Positions 17,744 to 24,863 of a stretch of DNA of 63,999 bases are shown here, in pieces. The stretch comes from Rhizodiscina lignyota. Lineage: Eukaryota. A program made the position numbers and the translations under genes. Below the pieces are notes generated by a model. That model saw nothing but the letters and a program-made list of their open reading frames with translations. It did no database searches and had not been told where the DNA came from. Numbering within the stretch: position 1 is the first letter of the stretch; every line of letters begins with the position of its first letter. The DNA lies in assembly GCA_010015805.1 (NCBI GenBank), contig ML978122.1, positions 3,258,453 through 3,322,451 of the forward strand, written 5' to 3'.

Positions 17744-18470
17744 ATGTCCAAACTCATCGTTGTTACAGGAGCAACGGGCCGTCAAGGCGGTCAAGTGGTT
17801 CGCGCCTTATTGAATCAGCCATTATTCTCATCCGTTGAATACGCAATCTGTGCAATCACGCGCAATCCAGCATCTCCCGCAGCAAAATCACCTGCCTCGC
17901 TCTCACCGGCCGTTAAGCTCAGCCAAGGTCATCTGTCTAGGCCTTTGAAGCTGGTACAATCTCTTCCGGAAAGGCCATGGGCGATTTATATCATGACGAG
18001 ACCCAAGAACACGGAGGTTTAAGATGCGGCACGTCTCATTGATGCTGCTTTGGAAACCGGCGTTCAACATTGTGTTATCTAGCGTGGATCGTGGGCACAA
18101 CTCTACCGAGGGCTTCAATCGATCTTGCAGAGTCCCCGTATGGAACACGAAACATCACATTGAAGCACATCTTCGCCAACGCATTGCAGCAGGAGACGGC
18201 AAGCCCTGCACTTACACCATCATTGGGCCCGTCTTCTCCCTTGACAATTTGGCCCCGAACTTCTTCGGAAGACTCACAGCAACCTGGTGGGACTCATTCC
18301 TCCAAGGAAAGCCTCTCAGGGTAATTGATACTATGGATGTTGGCAACTTTGCTGCTCAAGCACTCCTTGACCCTACCTCTCCCCGCTTTGCAAATGCCGA
18401 AGTCAATCTAGCCGGAGACGTACTCACCTTTGATCAGGCGAATAAGACTTTCTATCAGCGGAGTTGCTGA
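17744..18470 (+). pseudogene. NmrA-like/isoflavone-reductase-like NAD(P)-binding protein, disrupted
   Basis: MSKLIVVTGATGRQGGQVV...AITRNPASPAAK. In-frame TAA at 18020-18022, after which the same frame continues DAARLIDAALETGVQH. Frameshift at ~18070 into VLSSVDRG...TKHHIEAHL...LAGDVLTF. No intron signals seen that would rescue it. Confidence 0.8.
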
Positions 18471-18963
18471 GGCGACCACAAGCGTAAGCACAAGTGTTCG
18501 TGTTGTCTCAACTGTCGTTAGCTAATCTGACGATAGCAGTAACCACATTTCAATGGTATGCCATATGCGCAATCGCTGTTGTCACATTCATGTAGATCCG
18601 CACGTCAAAGGCAGGTGCAACATTTATAATACCTGCGAGGTCGTGATAGAAGCGTGACTCCAGAGCGGACTTCGTCCCGTCACATTCATTCAGACAGTGT
18701 AAGACGATCGGGTCGGTCCACACTTCGCTGATTTGTTCAGAAGACAGTTGGCATGGTCAAAGCACCAAAAGTAAAAGTAAAACCCGAATGTCAATTGCAA
18801 TCTAGCGATCGTATCATACACATTGTAAGGAAACAAGGAAACAGTCATATGAGATCGTCAAAGAGTGGCTGCCGGCTCAGTTCTCTTTCCCCCTTCTCTT
18901 AGTCCGCCAGGGACGAGAATTCCATATTCTTCACCTCCTTCGTGGCGACATTGCTGAACAGTT

Positions 18964-19967
18964 TTACTGCTTGCTAGGAGCAGCGCAGCCGTAGCCGTAT
19001 CCAAGGTTGATGGAGCAGCCGGCATCCTCTTCAAGGTCACCGCGCTTGATCATTTCCCCGAGGTGTCGCTTCATGATCTCGTTCTCAACAACGTCCCGCT
19101 TGCTTGAGGCACAGCCGTAGCTATAGCCGAGGTTGACTGAGCAGCCAGCATCCTCCTCAAGTCCGCTATCTGTCGCACGTCTCTTGATCTCCTCCTCGAC
19201 GGCGGCCCTCTTGGATGGAGCACATCCGTAGCTGTAGCCAAGGGTGACCGAGCAACCGGCATCGGGCTCAGCCGTCGAGCGCCTCTTGATCTCAGCATGG
19301 CGCTTGGCAATGGCGTCCTCAACCACGGAGCGCTTGGAAGAAGCACAGCCGTAGCTGTAGCCAAGGTTAACAGAGCAGCCAGCGTCCTCCTCGAGGTCAC
19401 CACGCTTGGTCATCTCCGCCAAATGACGCTTCGCAATCTCGCCTTCGACAAAAGCGCGCTTGGAAGACGAGGCGCAGCCATAGCTGTAGCCGAGCGTGAT
19501 GGAGCAGCCGGCATCCTCATTGAGGTCGCCATCGGTTGCGCGCTTCTTGATTTCGTTCTCGACAGCGGAGCGCTTGCTCGAGGCGCAGCCATAGCTGTAA
19601 CCAAGGTTGACAGAGCATCCAGCATCCTCCTCAAGATCGCCGCGCTTCACCATCTCGGCCATGTGGCGCTTTGCGATCTCTCCCTCGACGACATCACGCT
19701 TGGAGGAAGCGCAGCCGTAGCTGTAGCCAAGGTTGACGGAGCAACCAGCATCCTCATTGAGGTCTGTATCAGTTGCACGAGGAAGGAGGCCCTTGGACTT
19801 CAGAGTCTCCAAGATTTTGAGACCTGCGTAATGTCAGCGGCTGCGGATAAGACTGGGATAGGAGAAGGTGGCCTACCTTCAGCTGGGGAAGATGCCTGGA
19901 TGGTTGCTGGGGCGCCAGCAACGGCGGTCGCCGTAGCGAGCATAGACACAAGCTGGGAGAAGAGCAT
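18964..19967 (-). CDS. Secreted Kex2-processed repeat protein (KEP); putative fungal RiPP precursor, 316 aa, 7 core repeats
   Basis: Exon 1 19967-19877 encodes a signal peptide, MLFSQLVSMLATATAVAGAP. Intron 19876-19824 (GTAGGC...GCTGAC...CAG). Exon 2 encodes seven (E/P)DAGCS[VI][NT]LGY[SG]YGCA units bounded by KR/RR sites. Confidence 0.92.
18970..19775 (-). repeat. Coding tandem repeat array (7 core units plus spacer peptides)
   Basis: The + strand shows the motif family CAGCC(G/A)TAGCT(G/A)TAGCC(A/G)AGGTT recurring seven times with minor variants. Confidence 0.95.
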
Positions 19968-20129
19968 TTTGATTGAATGAAGTGTTTGTCCAAACGACTT
20001 GACTTGTGCGATTTTGCAAAGCTGCTTGGATGAACGAAGGGGAGCTTGGTGTCTTGCTTGGCTGACGACTCGCTATGGTGCTGAGATCGGAGGCGATGGT
20101 TCTCGTCAAAAGCCGTGAAATCGAGTGCA

Positions 20130-22322: not shown

Positions 22323-23291
22323 ATGGAATTGGATGAAAAATATCACGACGAGGACATTGCCCTGCGCTCTTCAGGCGAAGAGGAGTCCAAGAGTGACCCT
22401 CATGAAGCCTTTCTACCATCCGGTAACAAGAGAAGATATGTCCAGATCCAAGTCTCAATTCATAGGTGGATGCTGCATGTTCTGCTCCTGAGTATCAACC
22501 TTCTGGCACTCATCTATCTTGTCTTGTCTTTGCGGGAGAGTAAGGTGGAACGTCTGGTTTATTGTAAGCGTTATCTTTTCAGTCTCCTTCTGCTCATAAG
22601 CTTACATTTTATAGCACCTCTCAACGATATTATCACACCCACCAGGGAGTATCGAAACATCACGCTCGGCGATCGGACGCCGTTCACAGATGCTCCAGGT
22701 CCTGCTGTCGATGCGCTGTGGAATAGCATCTCTGTTCCTCCCGGAGATGTCGGCGTCGTTATCCTGAATCAGCAAGAGAAAGACAAGTGGGGTGTTACGA
22801 CTGTGAAATTGGCAGATGGTTCAGGATATGCAGCCACAATCGACGTGTTCCATCAACTTCACTGTCTGGATCAGCTGAGGCAATTCATTTTCAATGACAC
22901 GTACAAGATCTCACCTACAGAGCATCCGCTGTGGGAAGATCATATCGGTAAGTTGCTTACCAATGTCATGTCCTGTTGCTGACTCTTACTCAAAGCACAT
23001 TGCATTGACTCAATTCGCCTCTCTCTACAGTGCAGTGCAGACGTGAGTTTGATGCCATGGAATTGGATTCGTGGTTATGCGCTGCCCTGGCCTGATTTTC
23101 GGGCCAAGCATGAGTGTCGTAACTGGGACGACATTGTCGCATGGGCATTGGACCGGAAGCTGGATACGGAGAAGCCAGGCATTTGGGTCCATCCAGAACT
23201 GGGAAATAAAGACCTTTTGGATGAGAGCTTCACGCAAAATCCTTTGGAGGATGGGAAGGAAATTGAATATTTGGAGGATAATCTCTACTAG
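22323..23291 (+). CDS. DUF3328 / UstYa-like oxidase (fungal RiPP maturase family)
   Basis: N-terminal TM helix; VYSPL after removing intron 22564-22614; PGPAVDALW; first motif VFHQLHCLD. After removing intron 22948-22995, second motif HIAHCIDSIRLSLQCSADVS. C-terminal HECRNWDDIVAWA. All are hallmark DUF3328 motifs. Confidence 0.95.
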
Positions 23292-24026
23292 CTAGAGAGT
23301 GACTTCTTCTCTTCAGCTAAAATGATTGTTTTCGACTTTCATGTATTCGTATCGTTGGAGTCTGCAGGTTTCTGGCTCCGCGGTTGTCATTTACGATGTC
23401 GTCGGCTCAGTGTAAGAACAGTCTGATGTAGTACATTCGCTTCCGTCATTACCAGCTTGGTCGTTTCATTCCATCTCGGGGCACTCACAGCAATACCAGG
23501 TCGCAAACTGCCAACCCTTAAGTGACGTAGTCTTCGGTGATTGAAATGACGTGCAAACAACATGTACCTGTTACCTGTTGTTGTTTTCAATGAAGCTACA
23601 GCAAACAGGACTCTGAGCGAGAGTATGGCGCAGACGAAAGATTTATGTGGAGCGGTATGGTCTCATTGTTCATACTGGAGATTATTTCCTCATCCGAAAC
23701 CCCTCTGCCCCTTCCAAGAAATGCGCAGAATGGCTCTACATGTTGAGTAACACAAGTCTCGCCGCCTTGCACAACCACTCACAGCAGATCAGAAAAGATT
23801 TCGCATCGTATATTTGTTTGACAAATTACATGACAAATCTCTCAGGCTAGTGCATCCGCCTCGTTCTCTGCGCATTCATATCTATCGATAACCGTTATCA
23901 AATTCTTGAAACAATGCACTCGATATTTGACGAACTTGTGTCAGGCGCGCAAAAGAGATAACCCTCTGCATGATATATGGCGGTGCACAGCGGATACGGA
24001 ATATATTTGTTGAGGAGCTACGTGCA

Positions 24027-24863
24027 CTATTTCAAGCTCTGTAAGAATTCTTGATATAGCCGCAAGCAATTTTTAGACGCTTCGGGCTCCAAATAAATCT
24101 CATGGCCATTTGCCTTGATCAGCTCCTGCTTCGAGCCTTTGACAGCTTCATGCAGATCCTTCTGCTCGTCCAAATTGACGAGCTTGCTGTTGGACGGCGT
24201 CAACATCAGCATCGGAACCTTGATATTATTCATAATCCTTCGAGCGTCGAAGTCACTCGAGCACAATAGCTCGGCGTGATCTCCAAGGCCTTTGCCATCC
24301 ATGTCACCAACCTCCTTCAGCCACCATTTCACAAACGCTGGATCGGCATCTTTGCTCGTGTTCAGGACATTGAGAATTTCTTCTCCCCACCCACGCGCAC
24401 CGAGGTCACGGAGGGCATCCGCCCAGCTCTTGTGCCCGAATGCCAGCATTTCCTGCGCTGCTTTCGGCATGTAGAGTGGCGAGGAGCATATCGCGAGCGA
24501 ATGCAAGCGCTCCGGATACTTCGCCGCAAAGAACTCGCCCCATATACCACCGGTAGATTCTCCGATATAGTGGACTTTTTCCAAGCCGAGCTGGTCAAGC
24601 GTATCCTTGATTTCGTCGAGGATCGTGTCCATGTCGTACGTGTACTCTGGTTTGGTTGGAGCGCTGGACTTTCCATGTCCACGAGCATCTCGACGTATCA
24701 CTCTGTAGTTCTGAGCAAGGACTGGGACCCATTTGTACCAAAAGATGGCAGAACGAGCAAATCCGTGCTGGATCAGGATCGTGTCGTGCGGCTTCCAGGG
24801 ATCAACAAAGTCGTCCTCATAGTAGAAGGTCTTCTGCCCATTGGGGTGAGTGATGTACGGCAT
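24027..24863 (-). CDS. Alpha/beta hydrolase (Abhydrolase_1; enol-lactonase-like)
   Basis: Intronless 278-aa ORF with QHGF oxyanion loop, RRDARGHGKS, nucleophile elbow GESTGG and catalytic His in NGHEI. Confidence 0.9.
   Translation of the reverse strand: MPYITHPNGQKTFYYEDDFVDPWKPHDTILIQHGFARSAIFWYKWVPVLAQNYRVIRRDARGHGKSSAPTKPEYTYDMDTILDEIKDTLDQLGLEKVHYIGESTGGIWGEFFAAKYPERLHSLAICSSPLYMPKAAQEMLAFGHKSWADALRDLGARGWGEEILNVLNTSKDADPAFVKWWLKEVGDMDGKGLGDHAELLCSSDFDARRIMNNIKVPMLMLTPSNSKLVNLDEQKDLHEAVKGSKQELIKANGHEIYLEPEASKNCLRLYQEFLQSLK

What the first reader, a model, noticed from the sequence alone, without database searches (positions are those of the whole stretch)
17744..24863. Candidate undescribed fungal RiPP (dikaritin-type) gene cluster: KEP precursor plus DUF3328 oxidase
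Seen: a secreted precursor with seven KR-bounded cores (18964..19967, -) is transcribed divergently from an intact DUF3328/UstYa gene (22323..23291, +) with both HXXHC motifs. An NmrA-like pseudogene and an alpha/beta hydrolase flank them. Known: a signal-peptide/Kex2 repeat precursor next to a DUF3328 gene is the defining layout of the ustiloxin, phomopsin, asperipin-2a, victorin and epichloecyclin clusters, where acidic residues (ED) precede the core, as here (EED-AGC...). Inference: the locus makes a family of oxidatively cross-linked peptides. The core matches none of the cores I know (YAIG, YVIPID, FYYTGY, GLKLAF).
Basis: partly seen in the sequence, partly recalled or inferred. Interest (0 to 1): 0.95.

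Follow-up and report, generated by a model that had tools for sequence, protein, structure and literature searches.

The report
Unannotated repeat-peptide gene beside UstYa oxidase
A fungal gene that nobody has annotated encodes a secreted protein carrying seven copies of a short two-cysteine, two-tyrosine peptide, and it sits head-to-head with a copper-oxidase-type (UstYa/DUF3328) gene; the same pair occurs in a distant relative, so it is probably a new but ordinary-in-kind ribosomal cyclic-peptide locus.

Summary
A two-exon gene (19967..18964, minus strand) encodes a 316-aa protein with a hydrophobic N-terminus and seven cores of the form AGCS[VI][NT]LGY[SG]YGC. Six of the seven are followed by KR. 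An intact three-exon UstYa/DUF3328 gene (22323..23291, plus strand) lies 2,355 bp away, head to head. It scores 146 bits against PF11807 and carries HQLHC and HIAHC.

The UstYa protein is identical to a named Rhizodiscina lignyota protein. The precursor is absent from the protein collections searched, so it appears unannotated.

An exhaustive search found only three relatives of the precursor, all built on the core C-x-[IV]-x-L-G-Y-x-Y plus a second Cys. One is from Trematosphaeria pertusa. Its GenBank accession is consecutive with that of the closest full-length UstYa homologue, so the pair appears to be conserved across two orders.

The NmrA-like neighbour is a true pseudogene. Nothing ties the alpha/beta hydrolase to the pair.

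I read this as a minimal dikaritin-type RiPP cassette with a new core family (confidence 0.65). No product, expression or cross-link data exist. KEP plus DUF3328 pairs are common (22% of 7,878 KEPs), so this is a new member of a known kind. Interest is about 0.4, not 0.95.

The parts
19877..19967 (-). Precursor exon 1: ATG plus a hydrophobic N-terminus (30 codons + 1 nt), the presumed signal peptide
   Evidence: It is the first ATG of its ORF. The Kyte-Doolittle 19-mer mean is 1.50 at residues 1-19. No signal-peptide predictor was available.
19824..19876 (-). Precursor intron, 53 nt, GT..AG with a CTGAC branch-like site
   Evidence: Inferred from sequence and reading frame, without RNA evidence. 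Relative P0004 begins M-ILETL, matching the start of exon 2.
18964..19823 (-). Precursor exon 2: pro-region, seven core repeats with spacers, and the TAA stop
19717..19743 (-). Core 1 (CSVNLGYSY, then GC)
19591..19617 (-). Core 2 (CSVNLGYSY, then GC)
19480..19506 (-). Core 3 (CSITLGYSY, then GC)
19351..19377 (-). Core 4 (CSVNLGYSY, then GC)
19228..19254 (-). Core 5 (CSVTLGYSY, then GC)
19117..19143 (-). Core 6 (CSVNLGYSY, then GC)
18991..19017 (-). Core 7 (CSINLGYGY, then GC), C-terminal and not followed by KR
19968..22322 (.). 2,355-bp head-to-head intergenic region between the two start codons, the presumed shared promoter region
   Evidence: Coordinates. The three ORFs of 110 aa or more in it or overlapping it (19772-20407, 21117-21458, 21894-22259, all minus strand) have no Pfam match.
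22323..22563 (+). UstYa/DUF3328 exon 1: acidic N-terminal region and a transmembrane-like segment (about residues 50-70)
   Evidence: KD19 2.45 at residue 50
22615..22947 (+). UstYa exon 2, containing HQLHC (22851-22865)
22941..23003 (+). Second HxxHC motif (HIAHC, residues 190-194), split by intron 2 (22948-22995)
22996..23291 (+). UstYa exon 3 and the stop codon
17744..18470 (+). NmrA-like pseudogene next to the 3' end of the precursor, with nonsense TAA at 18020-18022 and a frameshift near 18075-18080. It may be a decayed counterpart of the asperipin cluster's reductase. Membership in the cassette is not shown.
   Evidence: The asperipin gene list comes from PMC6514808 passages.
24027..24863 (-). 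Intact alpha/beta hydrolase (278 aa) with no hydrophobic N-terminus by eye. It is a neighbour, and membership in the cassette is not shown.
   Evidence: The protein is annotated in public data on the same 3.32-Mb contig.

Best explanation
This is a minimal dikaritin-type RiPP cassette consisting of a Kex2-processed repeat precursor and one UstYa/DUF3328 enzyme.

Shown:
- Both genes are intact.
- The repeats are under purifying selection.
- The enzyme has all the sequence hallmarks of the family.
- The two genes appear to travel together in a second Dothideomycete order.

Inferred mechanism:
1. The precursor enters the ER through its N-terminal signal peptide.
2. The two cysteines of each core (the first is invariant; the second is always present, at +10 or +7) form a disulfide there.
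3. The membrane-anchored, lumen-facing binuclear-copper UstYa enzyme oxidises the invariant L-G-Y-x-Y segment. Most likely it forms Tyr-derived ether cross-links to a beta-carbon, as described for ustiloxin, phomopsin and asperipin-2a.
4. Kex2 cuts at the KR/RR sites in the Golgi.
5. Exopeptidases trim the acidic N-terminal stub (…EED) and the C-terminal ASS-KR tail. This releases up to seven copies of a peptide of about 11-14 residues (roughly A-G-C-S-V-N-L-G-Y-S-Y-G-C).

In the T. pertusa and P0006 relatives the dibasic site sits only 1-3 residues before the first Cys. This places the N-terminal edge of the mature peptide there.
For: 1. PF11807 matches at 146 bits. HQLHC and HIAHC are present. 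A single strongly hydrophobic segment lies at about residues 50-70. These are the features that PMC12435403 (passages) gives for DUF3328 binuclear-copper enzymes.
2. KEP architecture: 316 aa, seven cores, dibasic sites.
3. Selection on the core: 77 synonymous against 26 non-synonymous codon differences.
4. Family conservation. In 20 cores from 4 precursors, C0, [IV]2, L4, Y6 and Y8 are invariant in 20 of 20. G5 is present in 18 of 20. A second Cys sits at +10 in 14 of 20 and at +7 in 6 of 20.
5. Linkage. The precursor relative P0007 and the UstYa relative P0003 of T. pertusa have consecutive GenBank and RefSeq accessions on one 5.0-Mb contig. P0003 is the best full-length hit other than the protein itself among 3 hits. 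P0007 is one of only 3 true relatives among 11 hits in 1.84 billion representatives.
6. Literature on KEP genes: DUF3328 genes are enriched next to them, and pheromone KEPs lack such neighbours with three exceptions (PMC7329392 abstract).
7. The ED-before-core layout parallels UstA (PMC6514808 passages).
Against: - There is no expression evidence; no RNA run was listed.
- There are no product or cross-link data.
- The intron and the signal peptide are inferred from sequence alone.
- Adjacency in T. pertusa is inferred from consecutive accession numbers. It was not read from DNA, and orientation and spacing there are unknown.
- Only one independent instance of linkage could be examined. The contigs of P0004 and P0006 could not be fetched, and both metagenome scans found nothing.
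- No characterised dikaritin that I know of has cysteines in its core. The peptide could therefore be a plain disulfide peptide.
- The usual accessory genes are not next to the pair: a transporter, tyrosinase, methyltransferase, S41 peptidase and an intact reductase are all missing.
- The adjacent NmrA-like gene is dead, which leaves open that the locus is decaying.
- A protein-language-model look-up gave 'Pheromone 1' as the nearest cluster for the precursor, although only at 0.76, below the tool's level for a lead.
Confidence: 0.65

Rival explanations
1. The precursor is an ordinary KEP whose peptides are released by Kex2 and carry only a disulfide. They would act as signalling, antimicrobial or effector-like peptides. 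The neighbouring UstYa enzyme would work on some other substrate.
For: - 78% of KEPs have no DUF3328 neighbour, and KEP peptides can be unmodified (PMC7329392 abstract; PMC6339444 passages).
- Two cysteines per core (20 of 20 cores) already explain a cyclic product without any oxidase.
- DUF3328 enzymes also act on non-ribosomal peptides such as cyclochlorotine (PMC12435403).
- The two start codons are 2,355 bp apart, which is long for a shared promoter.
Against: - The pair recurs in T. pertusa with the closest UstYa homologue. Chance adjacency of the best homologues of two given genes in a genome of thousands of genes is very unlikely.
- L4, Y6 and Y8 are invariant across 20 cores at i, i+2, i+4 spacing. 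This is more than a disulfide loop needs.
- No NRPS or other candidate substrate gene was seen among the ORFs of 110 aa or more that I scanned in the window.
Confidence: 0.2
2. The gene is the alpha-type sexual pheromone precursor of this fungus, and the UstYa gene is an unrelated neighbour.
For: - Alpha-pheromone precursors are KEPs.
- Non-Pleosporales Dothideomycetes have alpha-pheromones with two conserved cysteines (PMC6339444 passages).
- The Atlas look-up gave 'Pheromone 1' as the nearest cluster, at 0.76, which is below the level of a lead.
- One T. pertusa core reads KR-AWC…GC, faintly like the WC…C pheromones.
Against: - The core-bearing Kex2 fragments start GD, AT or ST, not with the XA/XP STE13 dipeptides (signature as described in PMC6339444).
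- The core has neither the C-x-x-P-G-Q-x-C pattern (example RFCHLPGQGCSK) nor PYG[LM]P[IV]G. Its Cys spacing is 9 residues, not 6.
- A homologous precursor exists in a Pleosporales species, an order whose alpha-pheromone is described as the PYG type.
- Pheromone KEPs lack DUF3328 neighbours with three exceptions.
- I could not search either genome for a canonical pheromone gene, because no genome is held.
Confidence: 0.05
3. The cassette is a silent or decaying relic. Both genes still look intact, but the locus no longer makes a product.
For: - The directly adjacent NmrA-like gene carries a nonsense codon and a frameshift.
- No transporter or regulator lies next to the pair.
- The precursor was not called by the public annotation.
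- Most dikaritins are said to be produced only under limited conditions (PMC10512285 passages).
Against: - Both reading frames and all four splice sites are intact.
- The seven repeats differ mainly at synonymous sites.
- The catalytic His and Cys residues are kept.
Confidence: 0.1

Closest known systems
Asperipin-2a cluster of Aspergillus flavus (aprA precursor, aprY DUF3328, aprR isoflavone reductase, aprT transporter), as described in PMC6514808 passages
   Same: - It is a very small cluster built around one KEP precursor and a single DUF3328 enzyme.
- Its core is rich in tyrosines, and the cross-links run from Tyr side chains to beta-carbons.
- A reductase gene sits beside the precursor. 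That isoflavone reductases fall in the NmrA-like Pfam family is my recollection.
   Different: - The core here is C-x-[IV]-x-L-G-Y-x-Y-(x-C), not FYYTGY, and it carries two cysteines.
- The NmrA-like gene is a pseudogene.
- No transporter is adjacent.
- I could not measure sequence relatedness of this UstYa to AprY, because no AprY sequence was available from a tool.
Ustiloxin (UstA/UstYa/UstYb) and phomopsin (PhomA/PhomY) dikaritin clusters
   Same: - The precursor has a signal peptide and tandem cores.
- ED precedes each core and KR follows it.
- A PF11807 enzyme with two HxxHC motifs is present.
- The core contains Tyr.
   Different: - Those clusters have 13-15 genes, including a tyrosinase, methyltransferase, S41 peptidase and regulator. 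Here only two genes are linked.
- Their cores are 4-6 residues (YAIG, YVIPID) and have no Cys. Here the conserved unit is about 11 residues with two Cys.
Uncharacterised pair BU26DRAFT_558213 / BU26DRAFT_599405 of Trematosphaeria pertusa (P0007 / P0003)
   Same: - It has the same core family (GC[KNE]I[TVS]LGYGY[GSK]C, four copies) and an N-terminal hydrophobic leader.
- Its UstYa is 53% identical over the alignment.
- The two accessions are consecutive.
   Different: - It has four cores, not seven.
- KR lies directly before G-C instead of an ED stub.
- The spacers are long and proline/glutamate-rich.
- Nothing has been published on it that my searches found.
Alpha-type pheromone KEPs of Pezizomycotina (two-Cys type)
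   Same: They are secreted Kex2-repeat precursors, and each mature peptide of about 10-13 residues has two cysteines (PMC6339444 passages).
   Different: Here there are no STE13 dipeptides and no PGQ motif, the Cys spacing is different, and a co-conserved DUF3328 neighbour is present.

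Membership tests
UstYa / DUF3328 (PF11807) | Match to the Pfam model above the gathering score | tested here: met
   P0001 (the spliced window gene) scores 146 bits, E 1.9e-42, against a cut-off of 25, over profile positions 13-219 of 220. The two unspliced pieces score 63.8 and 62.5 bits. The nearest Atlas clusters are 100% PF11807, at 0.96.
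UstYa / DUF3328 (PF11807) | HxxHC(x)nHxxHC motif (PMC12435403) | tested here: met
   HQLHC is at residue 160 and HIAHC at 190. The motif is as defined in the passages.
UstYa / DUF3328 (PF11807) | Disordered N-terminus followed by one transmembrane helix, with the catalytic domain in the lumen | tested here: met
   The N-terminus is acidic. The Kyte-Doolittle 19-mer maximum is 2.45 at residues 50-68. This rests on hydropathy only; no topology predictor was run.
UstYa / DUF3328 (PF11807) | Copper- and O2-dependent catalysis as a disulfide-linked dimer | not testable with these tools
   This needs biochemistry. No solved homologue is in the PDB by sequence; the best E-value is 0.34.
Dikaritin-type RiPP locus (KEP precursor + DUF3328) | N-terminal signal peptide on the precursor | tested here: inconclusive
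   Residues 1-19 are hydrophobic (KD19 1.50) and end in AVAGA-P. Relative P0007 has a comparable leader. No SignalP-type tool was available.
Dikaritin-type RiPP locus (KEP precursor + DUF3328) | Three or more tandem core repeats separated by dibasic Kex2 sites | tested here: met
   There are seven cores and 17 [KR]R sites; six cores are followed by KR.
Dikaritin-type RiPP locus (KEP precursor + DUF3328) | DUF3328 gene within a few genes of the precursor | tested here: met
   The two genes are head to head with 2,355 bp between their ATGs. No Pfam-matching ORF lies between them.
Dikaritin-type RiPP locus (KEP precursor + DUF3328) | Linkage of the two genes conserved in other species | tested here: met
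   One instance: T. pertusa KAF2256775.1 and KAF2256776.1 on one contig. The adjacency is inferred from consecutive accessions, not from DNA. The other two relatives could not be examined.
Dikaritin-type RiPP locus (KEP precursor + DUF3328) | DUF3328-dependent oxidative cross-link in the mature peptide | not testable with these tools
   Cross-linkable residues are present and invariant (L4, Y6, Y8 in 20 of 20 cores). The chemistry is unknown.
Dikaritin-type RiPP locus (KEP precursor + DUF3328) | Co-expression of the precursor and the oxidase | not testable with these tools
   No RNA run holding the stretch was listed.
Asperipin-2a-type four-gene cluster | Intact isoflavone-reductase/NmrA-like gene and a transporter beside the precursor | tested here: not met
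   The NmrA-like gene has a nonsense codon and a frameshift. The nearest transporter-like ORF (Sugar_tr) is at 3223-4188, about 15 kb away.
Alpha-type sexual pheromone KEP | STE13 XA/XP dipeptides after the Kex2 site, and a core of the C..PGQ.C or PYG[LM]P[IV]G type (PMC6339444) | tested here: not met
   The core-bearing fragments begin GD, AT or ST. The core is CS[VI][NT]LGY[SG]YGC. The signatures are taken from the passages. The paper's Figure 6 and its peptide table were not available to me.

The most novel reading that the evidence does not exclude
This would be a new structural subclass of dikaritins. A binuclear-copper UstYa enzyme would act on a cysteine-bracketed L-G-Y-x-Y core, giving a peptide that combines a sulfur bridge with Tyr-derived cross-links. 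The sulfur bridge could be a disulfide or, more boldly, a copper-mediated Cys-Tyr thioether of the kind known from galactose oxidase (recalled). The cassette would be an ancient two-gene unit kept since Aulographales and Pleosporales split, and largely invisible because the precursor gene is not called by annotation pipelines.
Probability: 0.25. Interest if true: 0.65.

Novelty: new member of a known kind. Interest (0 to 1): 0.4.

Why it matters
Only five dikaritins had been reported by 2022, against at least 838 KEP types (PMC10512285 passages). DUF3328 enzymes were shown to be binuclear-copper enzymes only in 2025 (PMC12435403).

A two-gene cassette is a compact system for asking two questions: what a UstYa enzyme recognises, and which bond it makes. 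This one has an intact precursor, a single oxidase, and a core whose invariant positions are already mapped by four natural variants. Its core would also be the first with cysteines among those I know.

The locus also illustrates a practical point. The precursor is missing from the public protein sets, so protein-based genome mining would have missed the pair.

It does not change any concept. Loci of this layout are found by the hundred.

Tried and rejected
- Whole genome of the window: not held. I therefore could not search for a canonical pheromone gene, further UstYa genes or further precursor copies.
- RNA evidence: one run was listed and it is not RNA, so no RNA holder is listed. Laying the run gave only one DNA contig.
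- Word-based search with the precursor: 5,466 candidates, none at E <= 0.001.
- Profile search with four precursors: only the same three relatives among 8,000 scored candidates.
- Metagenome scan with the UstYa alignment: 117 pattern matches, 0 confirmed.
- Metagenome scan with the precursor alignment: 24 pattern matches, 0 confirmed.
- Tandem Repeats Finder on 18900-20000: no rows. The repeats are too diverged at the DNA level and have unequal spacers.
- Pfam on the precursor: only sub-threshold chance matches (UBA_9, DUF1685, DicB). P0004 gave a stretch-less KRTAP match. I rejected all of these.
- The other 8 of the 11 phmmer hits are long TPR-type repeat proteins (439-2,379 aa) without the core. 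I rejected them as composition or repeat artefacts.
- Earlier findings of this scan: nothing by place, by sequence (twice) or by words.
- Paper search for five core hexapeptides: 6 papers hold at least one of them and 5 were listed. Judging by their titles, none concerns fungal peptides.
- 'UstYa' + 'disulfide': 47 papers, 20 listed. These were surname noise plus acalitide (PMC10840396). Acalitide is a non-KEP, non-DUF3328 disulfide RiPP, so I rejected it as a relative.
- Supplements of PMC7329392: no mention of Rhizodiscina or Trematosphaeria. The table lists accessions, not sequences, so it cannot show whether the core family was seen.
- Supplements of PMC6339444: only 2 files are held, and the peptide table is not among them.
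- PDB sequence search with the UstYa protein: nothing significant.
- I did not run a structure prediction or a complex prediction.

Full report
**What is in the sequence**

On the minus strand an ATG at 19967 opens a 30-codon hydrophobic leader. A 53-nt GT..AG intron with a CTGAC branch-like site follows (19876..19824). A long second exon then ends at the TAA at 18964. Spliced in this way the gene encodes 316 aa.

Without the splice, the leader ORF stops after 55 codons and the repeat ORF has no leader. The splice is an inference from frame and consensus. No RNA run was available to check it.

The protein carries seven cores, AGCS[VI][NT]LGY[SG]YGC. The pattern C.[IV].L[GDE]Y.Y matches seven times here and nowhere else in the six frames of the 64-kb window. 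Six cores are followed by (A/P)S(S)KR, and the seventh ends the protein.

Upstream of each core the dibasic site is not adjacent. It lies 8-11 residues away, and ED (once PD) directly precedes AGC.

Across the 21 pairs of repeats, the C..C segment shows 77 synonymous against 26 non-synonymous codon differences. The non-synonymous ones are confined to V/I, N/T and S/G. The repeats are therefore being kept as protein.

**The oxidase gene**

The plus-strand gene is 22323-22563 / 22615-22947 / 22996-23291, with introns of 51 and 48 nt. Its product equals P0001 letter for letter. A source names P0001 as a hypothetical protein of Rhizodiscina lignyota (Dothideomycetes, Aulographales).

P0001 scores 146 bits on PF11807 against a cut-off of 25. 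It has HQLHC at residue 160 and HIAHC at 190. It has an acidic N-terminus followed by one strongly hydrophobic segment near residues 50-70.

These are the features that the CctR study gives for DUF3328 enzymes. That study describes membrane-anchored, lumen-facing, dimeric, binuclear-copper, O2-dependent enzymes (PMC12435403, passages read).

The two start codons are head to head, 2,355 bp apart. The three ORFs of 110 aa or more in or overlapping that gap have no Pfam match.

**Neighbours**

The NmrA-like gene at 17744-18470 is truly broken. An in-frame TAA at 18020-18022 lies inside the homologous region. Reading it as X lengthens the Pfam NmrA match from profile positions 1-67 (38 bits) to 1-103 (61 bits). 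About 55 nt further on, the frame shifts in the middle of a conserved segment.

An independently assembled contig of a public run, probably from the same DNA source, covers 17600-23400 without a single difference. These lesions are therefore unlikely to be assembly slips.

The alpha/beta hydrolase (24027-24863, minus strand) is intact, annotated in public data, and has no hydrophobic leader by eye. Nothing links it to the pair.

Further out lie several genes that I have no reason to add to the cassette:
- a Zn2Cys6 regulator (8625-11135)
- an FAD monooxygenase (11201-12562)
- a C78 peptidase
- an SDR
- housekeeping CLP1

**Relatives of the precursor**

The word-based search of 5.8 billion proteins found nothing, not even the gene itself. 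An exact look-up of the longest ATG-started piece also failed. The precursor therefore appears to be unannotated.

The exhaustive phmmer search of 1.84 billion representatives gave 11 hits at E <= 0.001. Eight of them are long TPR-type repeat proteins without the core. Three are real relatives:
- P0004: 150 aa, 63% identical, three cores of VGCS[VI][NT]LGY[SN]YGC.
- P0006: 270 aa, six cores of the form FKCSITLGYCYE.
- P0007: 177 aa, T. pertusa, four cores of GC[KNE]I[TVS]LGYGY[GSK]C.

A profile built from all four found only the same three.

Over the 20 cores:
- C0, [IV]2, L4, Y6 and Y8 are invariant.
- G5 is present in 18 of 20.
- Every core has exactly one further Cys, at +10 in 14 cores or at +7 in 6 (all 6 in P0006).

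In P0007 and P0006 the KR/RR site lies 1-3 residues before C0. In the window and in P0004 an ED stub lies there instead. I therefore place the N-terminal edge of the mature peptide one to three residues before the first Cys.

**The key test, conserved linkage**

The UstYa search returned three proteins: P0001 itself, a 131-aa fragment (P0002), and P0003 of T. pertusa. P0002 is 73% identical, and its end reads through the same intron position. P0003 is 50-53% identical.

P0003 is KAF2256776.1 / XP_033691780.1. The precursor relative P0007 is KAF2256775.1 / XP_033691779.1. Both lie on the same 5,011,004-bp contig.

Consecutive protein accessions in an annotated assembly normally mean consecutive genes. 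I take this as adjacency, while noting that I did not see the DNA. T. pertusa is in Pleosporales and R. lignyota in Aulographales.

So the best available homologue of each gene is the other's neighbour in a different order of fungi. That is hard to obtain by chance, and it is the main reason I tie the oxidase to this peptide.

I could not examine the contigs of P0004 and P0006. Two metagenome scans found no further loci.

**How it most likely works (inference)**

1. The precursor is secreted into the ER.
2. The two cysteines of each core form a disulfide.
3. The lumenal copper enzyme oxidises the invariant L-G-Y-x-Y segment. The spacing is i, i+2, i+4. By analogy this would form Tyr-to-beta-carbon ether links, as in ustiloxin, phomopsin and asperipin-2a (PMC6514808 passages).
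4. Kex2 cleaves at the KR/RR sites.
5. Exopeptidases trim the acidic stub and the C-terminal tail.

None of these steps is shown here.

The nearest described layout is the four-gene asperipin-2a cluster: precursor, one DUF3328, an isoflavone reductase and a transporter. Here the reductase-like gene is dead and no transporter is adjacent.

**Rivals**

*Plain disulfide KEP with an unrelated neighbour.* This remains possible (0.2). It is weakened by the conserved pairing and by the invariance of L, Y and Y.

*Alpha-pheromone.* This deserved a real look, because non-Pleosporales Dothideomycetes have two-cysteine alpha-pheromones (PMC6339444 passages), and the Atlas look-up returned 'Pheromone 1', though only at 0.76, below a lead. 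Against it:
- The core-bearing fragments lack the XA/XP STE13 dipeptides.
- The core has neither the C..PGQ.C nor the PYG motif.
- A homologue exists in a Pleosporales species.
- Pheromone KEPs lack DUF3328 neighbours with three exceptions (PMC7329392 abstract).

I could not search either genome for a canonical pheromone gene. I put this rival at 0.05.

*Silent or decaying locus.* I put this at 0.1. The dead neighbouring gene favours it. The intact frames, intact splice sites and synonymous-dominated repeat divergence argue against it.

**Novelty and interest**

I found no mention of this core in print. The searches were:
- five hexapeptide strings
- 'dikaritin' since 2020
- 'Kex2-processed repeat' or DUF3328
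- 'UstYa' + 'disulfide'

The two large KEP surveys did not include these two genera in the files I could read. Their peptide tables and figures were not available to me and could hold related cores.

The kind of locus is well known and common:
- 7,878 KEPs fall into 838 types, and 22% have a DUF3328 gene nearby.
- Nine such clusters were picked out by hand in one Venturia genome.

This is therefore a new member of a known kind. It has two modest points of interest: a cysteine-bracketed core family, and an unannotated precursor. I score interest at 0.4.

The boldest reading still open is a dikaritin subclass that combines a sulfur bridge, or even a copper-made Cys-Tyr thioether, with Tyr cross-links. 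I give that 0.25.

Noticed in passing
window 18964-19967 (-): The precursor gene appears to be missing from public protein sets. It was not found by the word search or by exact look-up of its longest ATG-started piece. Both flanking genes, UstYa and the hydrolase, are present on the same 3.32-Mb contig.
   Followed up: partly
P0002 (131-aa protein from a 642-bp public contig): This is a third UstYa of the same clade (73% identical). Its C-terminus reads through the same intron position as window intron 2 (…EDHIGK…), so the intron position is conserved and the public gene call is truncated.
   Followed up: partly
P0004 (150 aa, unnamed source): The closest precursor relative starts at M-ILETL, which aligns with the beginning of window exon 2. 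Its gene call probably misses an upstream signal-peptide exon.
   Followed up: no
window 8625-12562: A Zn2Cys6 regulator (8625-11135, +) lies next to a two-piece FAD-binding monooxygenase (11201-12562, -). This may be a small catabolic or secondary-metabolite pair. No link to the peptide cassette is shown.
   Followed up: no
window 42254-45965 (+): Two long open frames (770 and 505 aa, overlapping at 44451-44563) have no Pfam match at E <= 0.001. They may be one large gene of unknown family.
   Followed up: no
window 32498-33475 (+): A DUF6604 protein (E 1.9e-37), followed by a 371-aa ORF without a Pfam match.
   Followed up: no
UniRef name of P0007: A source labels the T. pertusa precursor 'Ecp2 effector protein domain-containing protein'. 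Pfam finds no family in it, so the label looks like a mis-transfer.
   Followed up: partly
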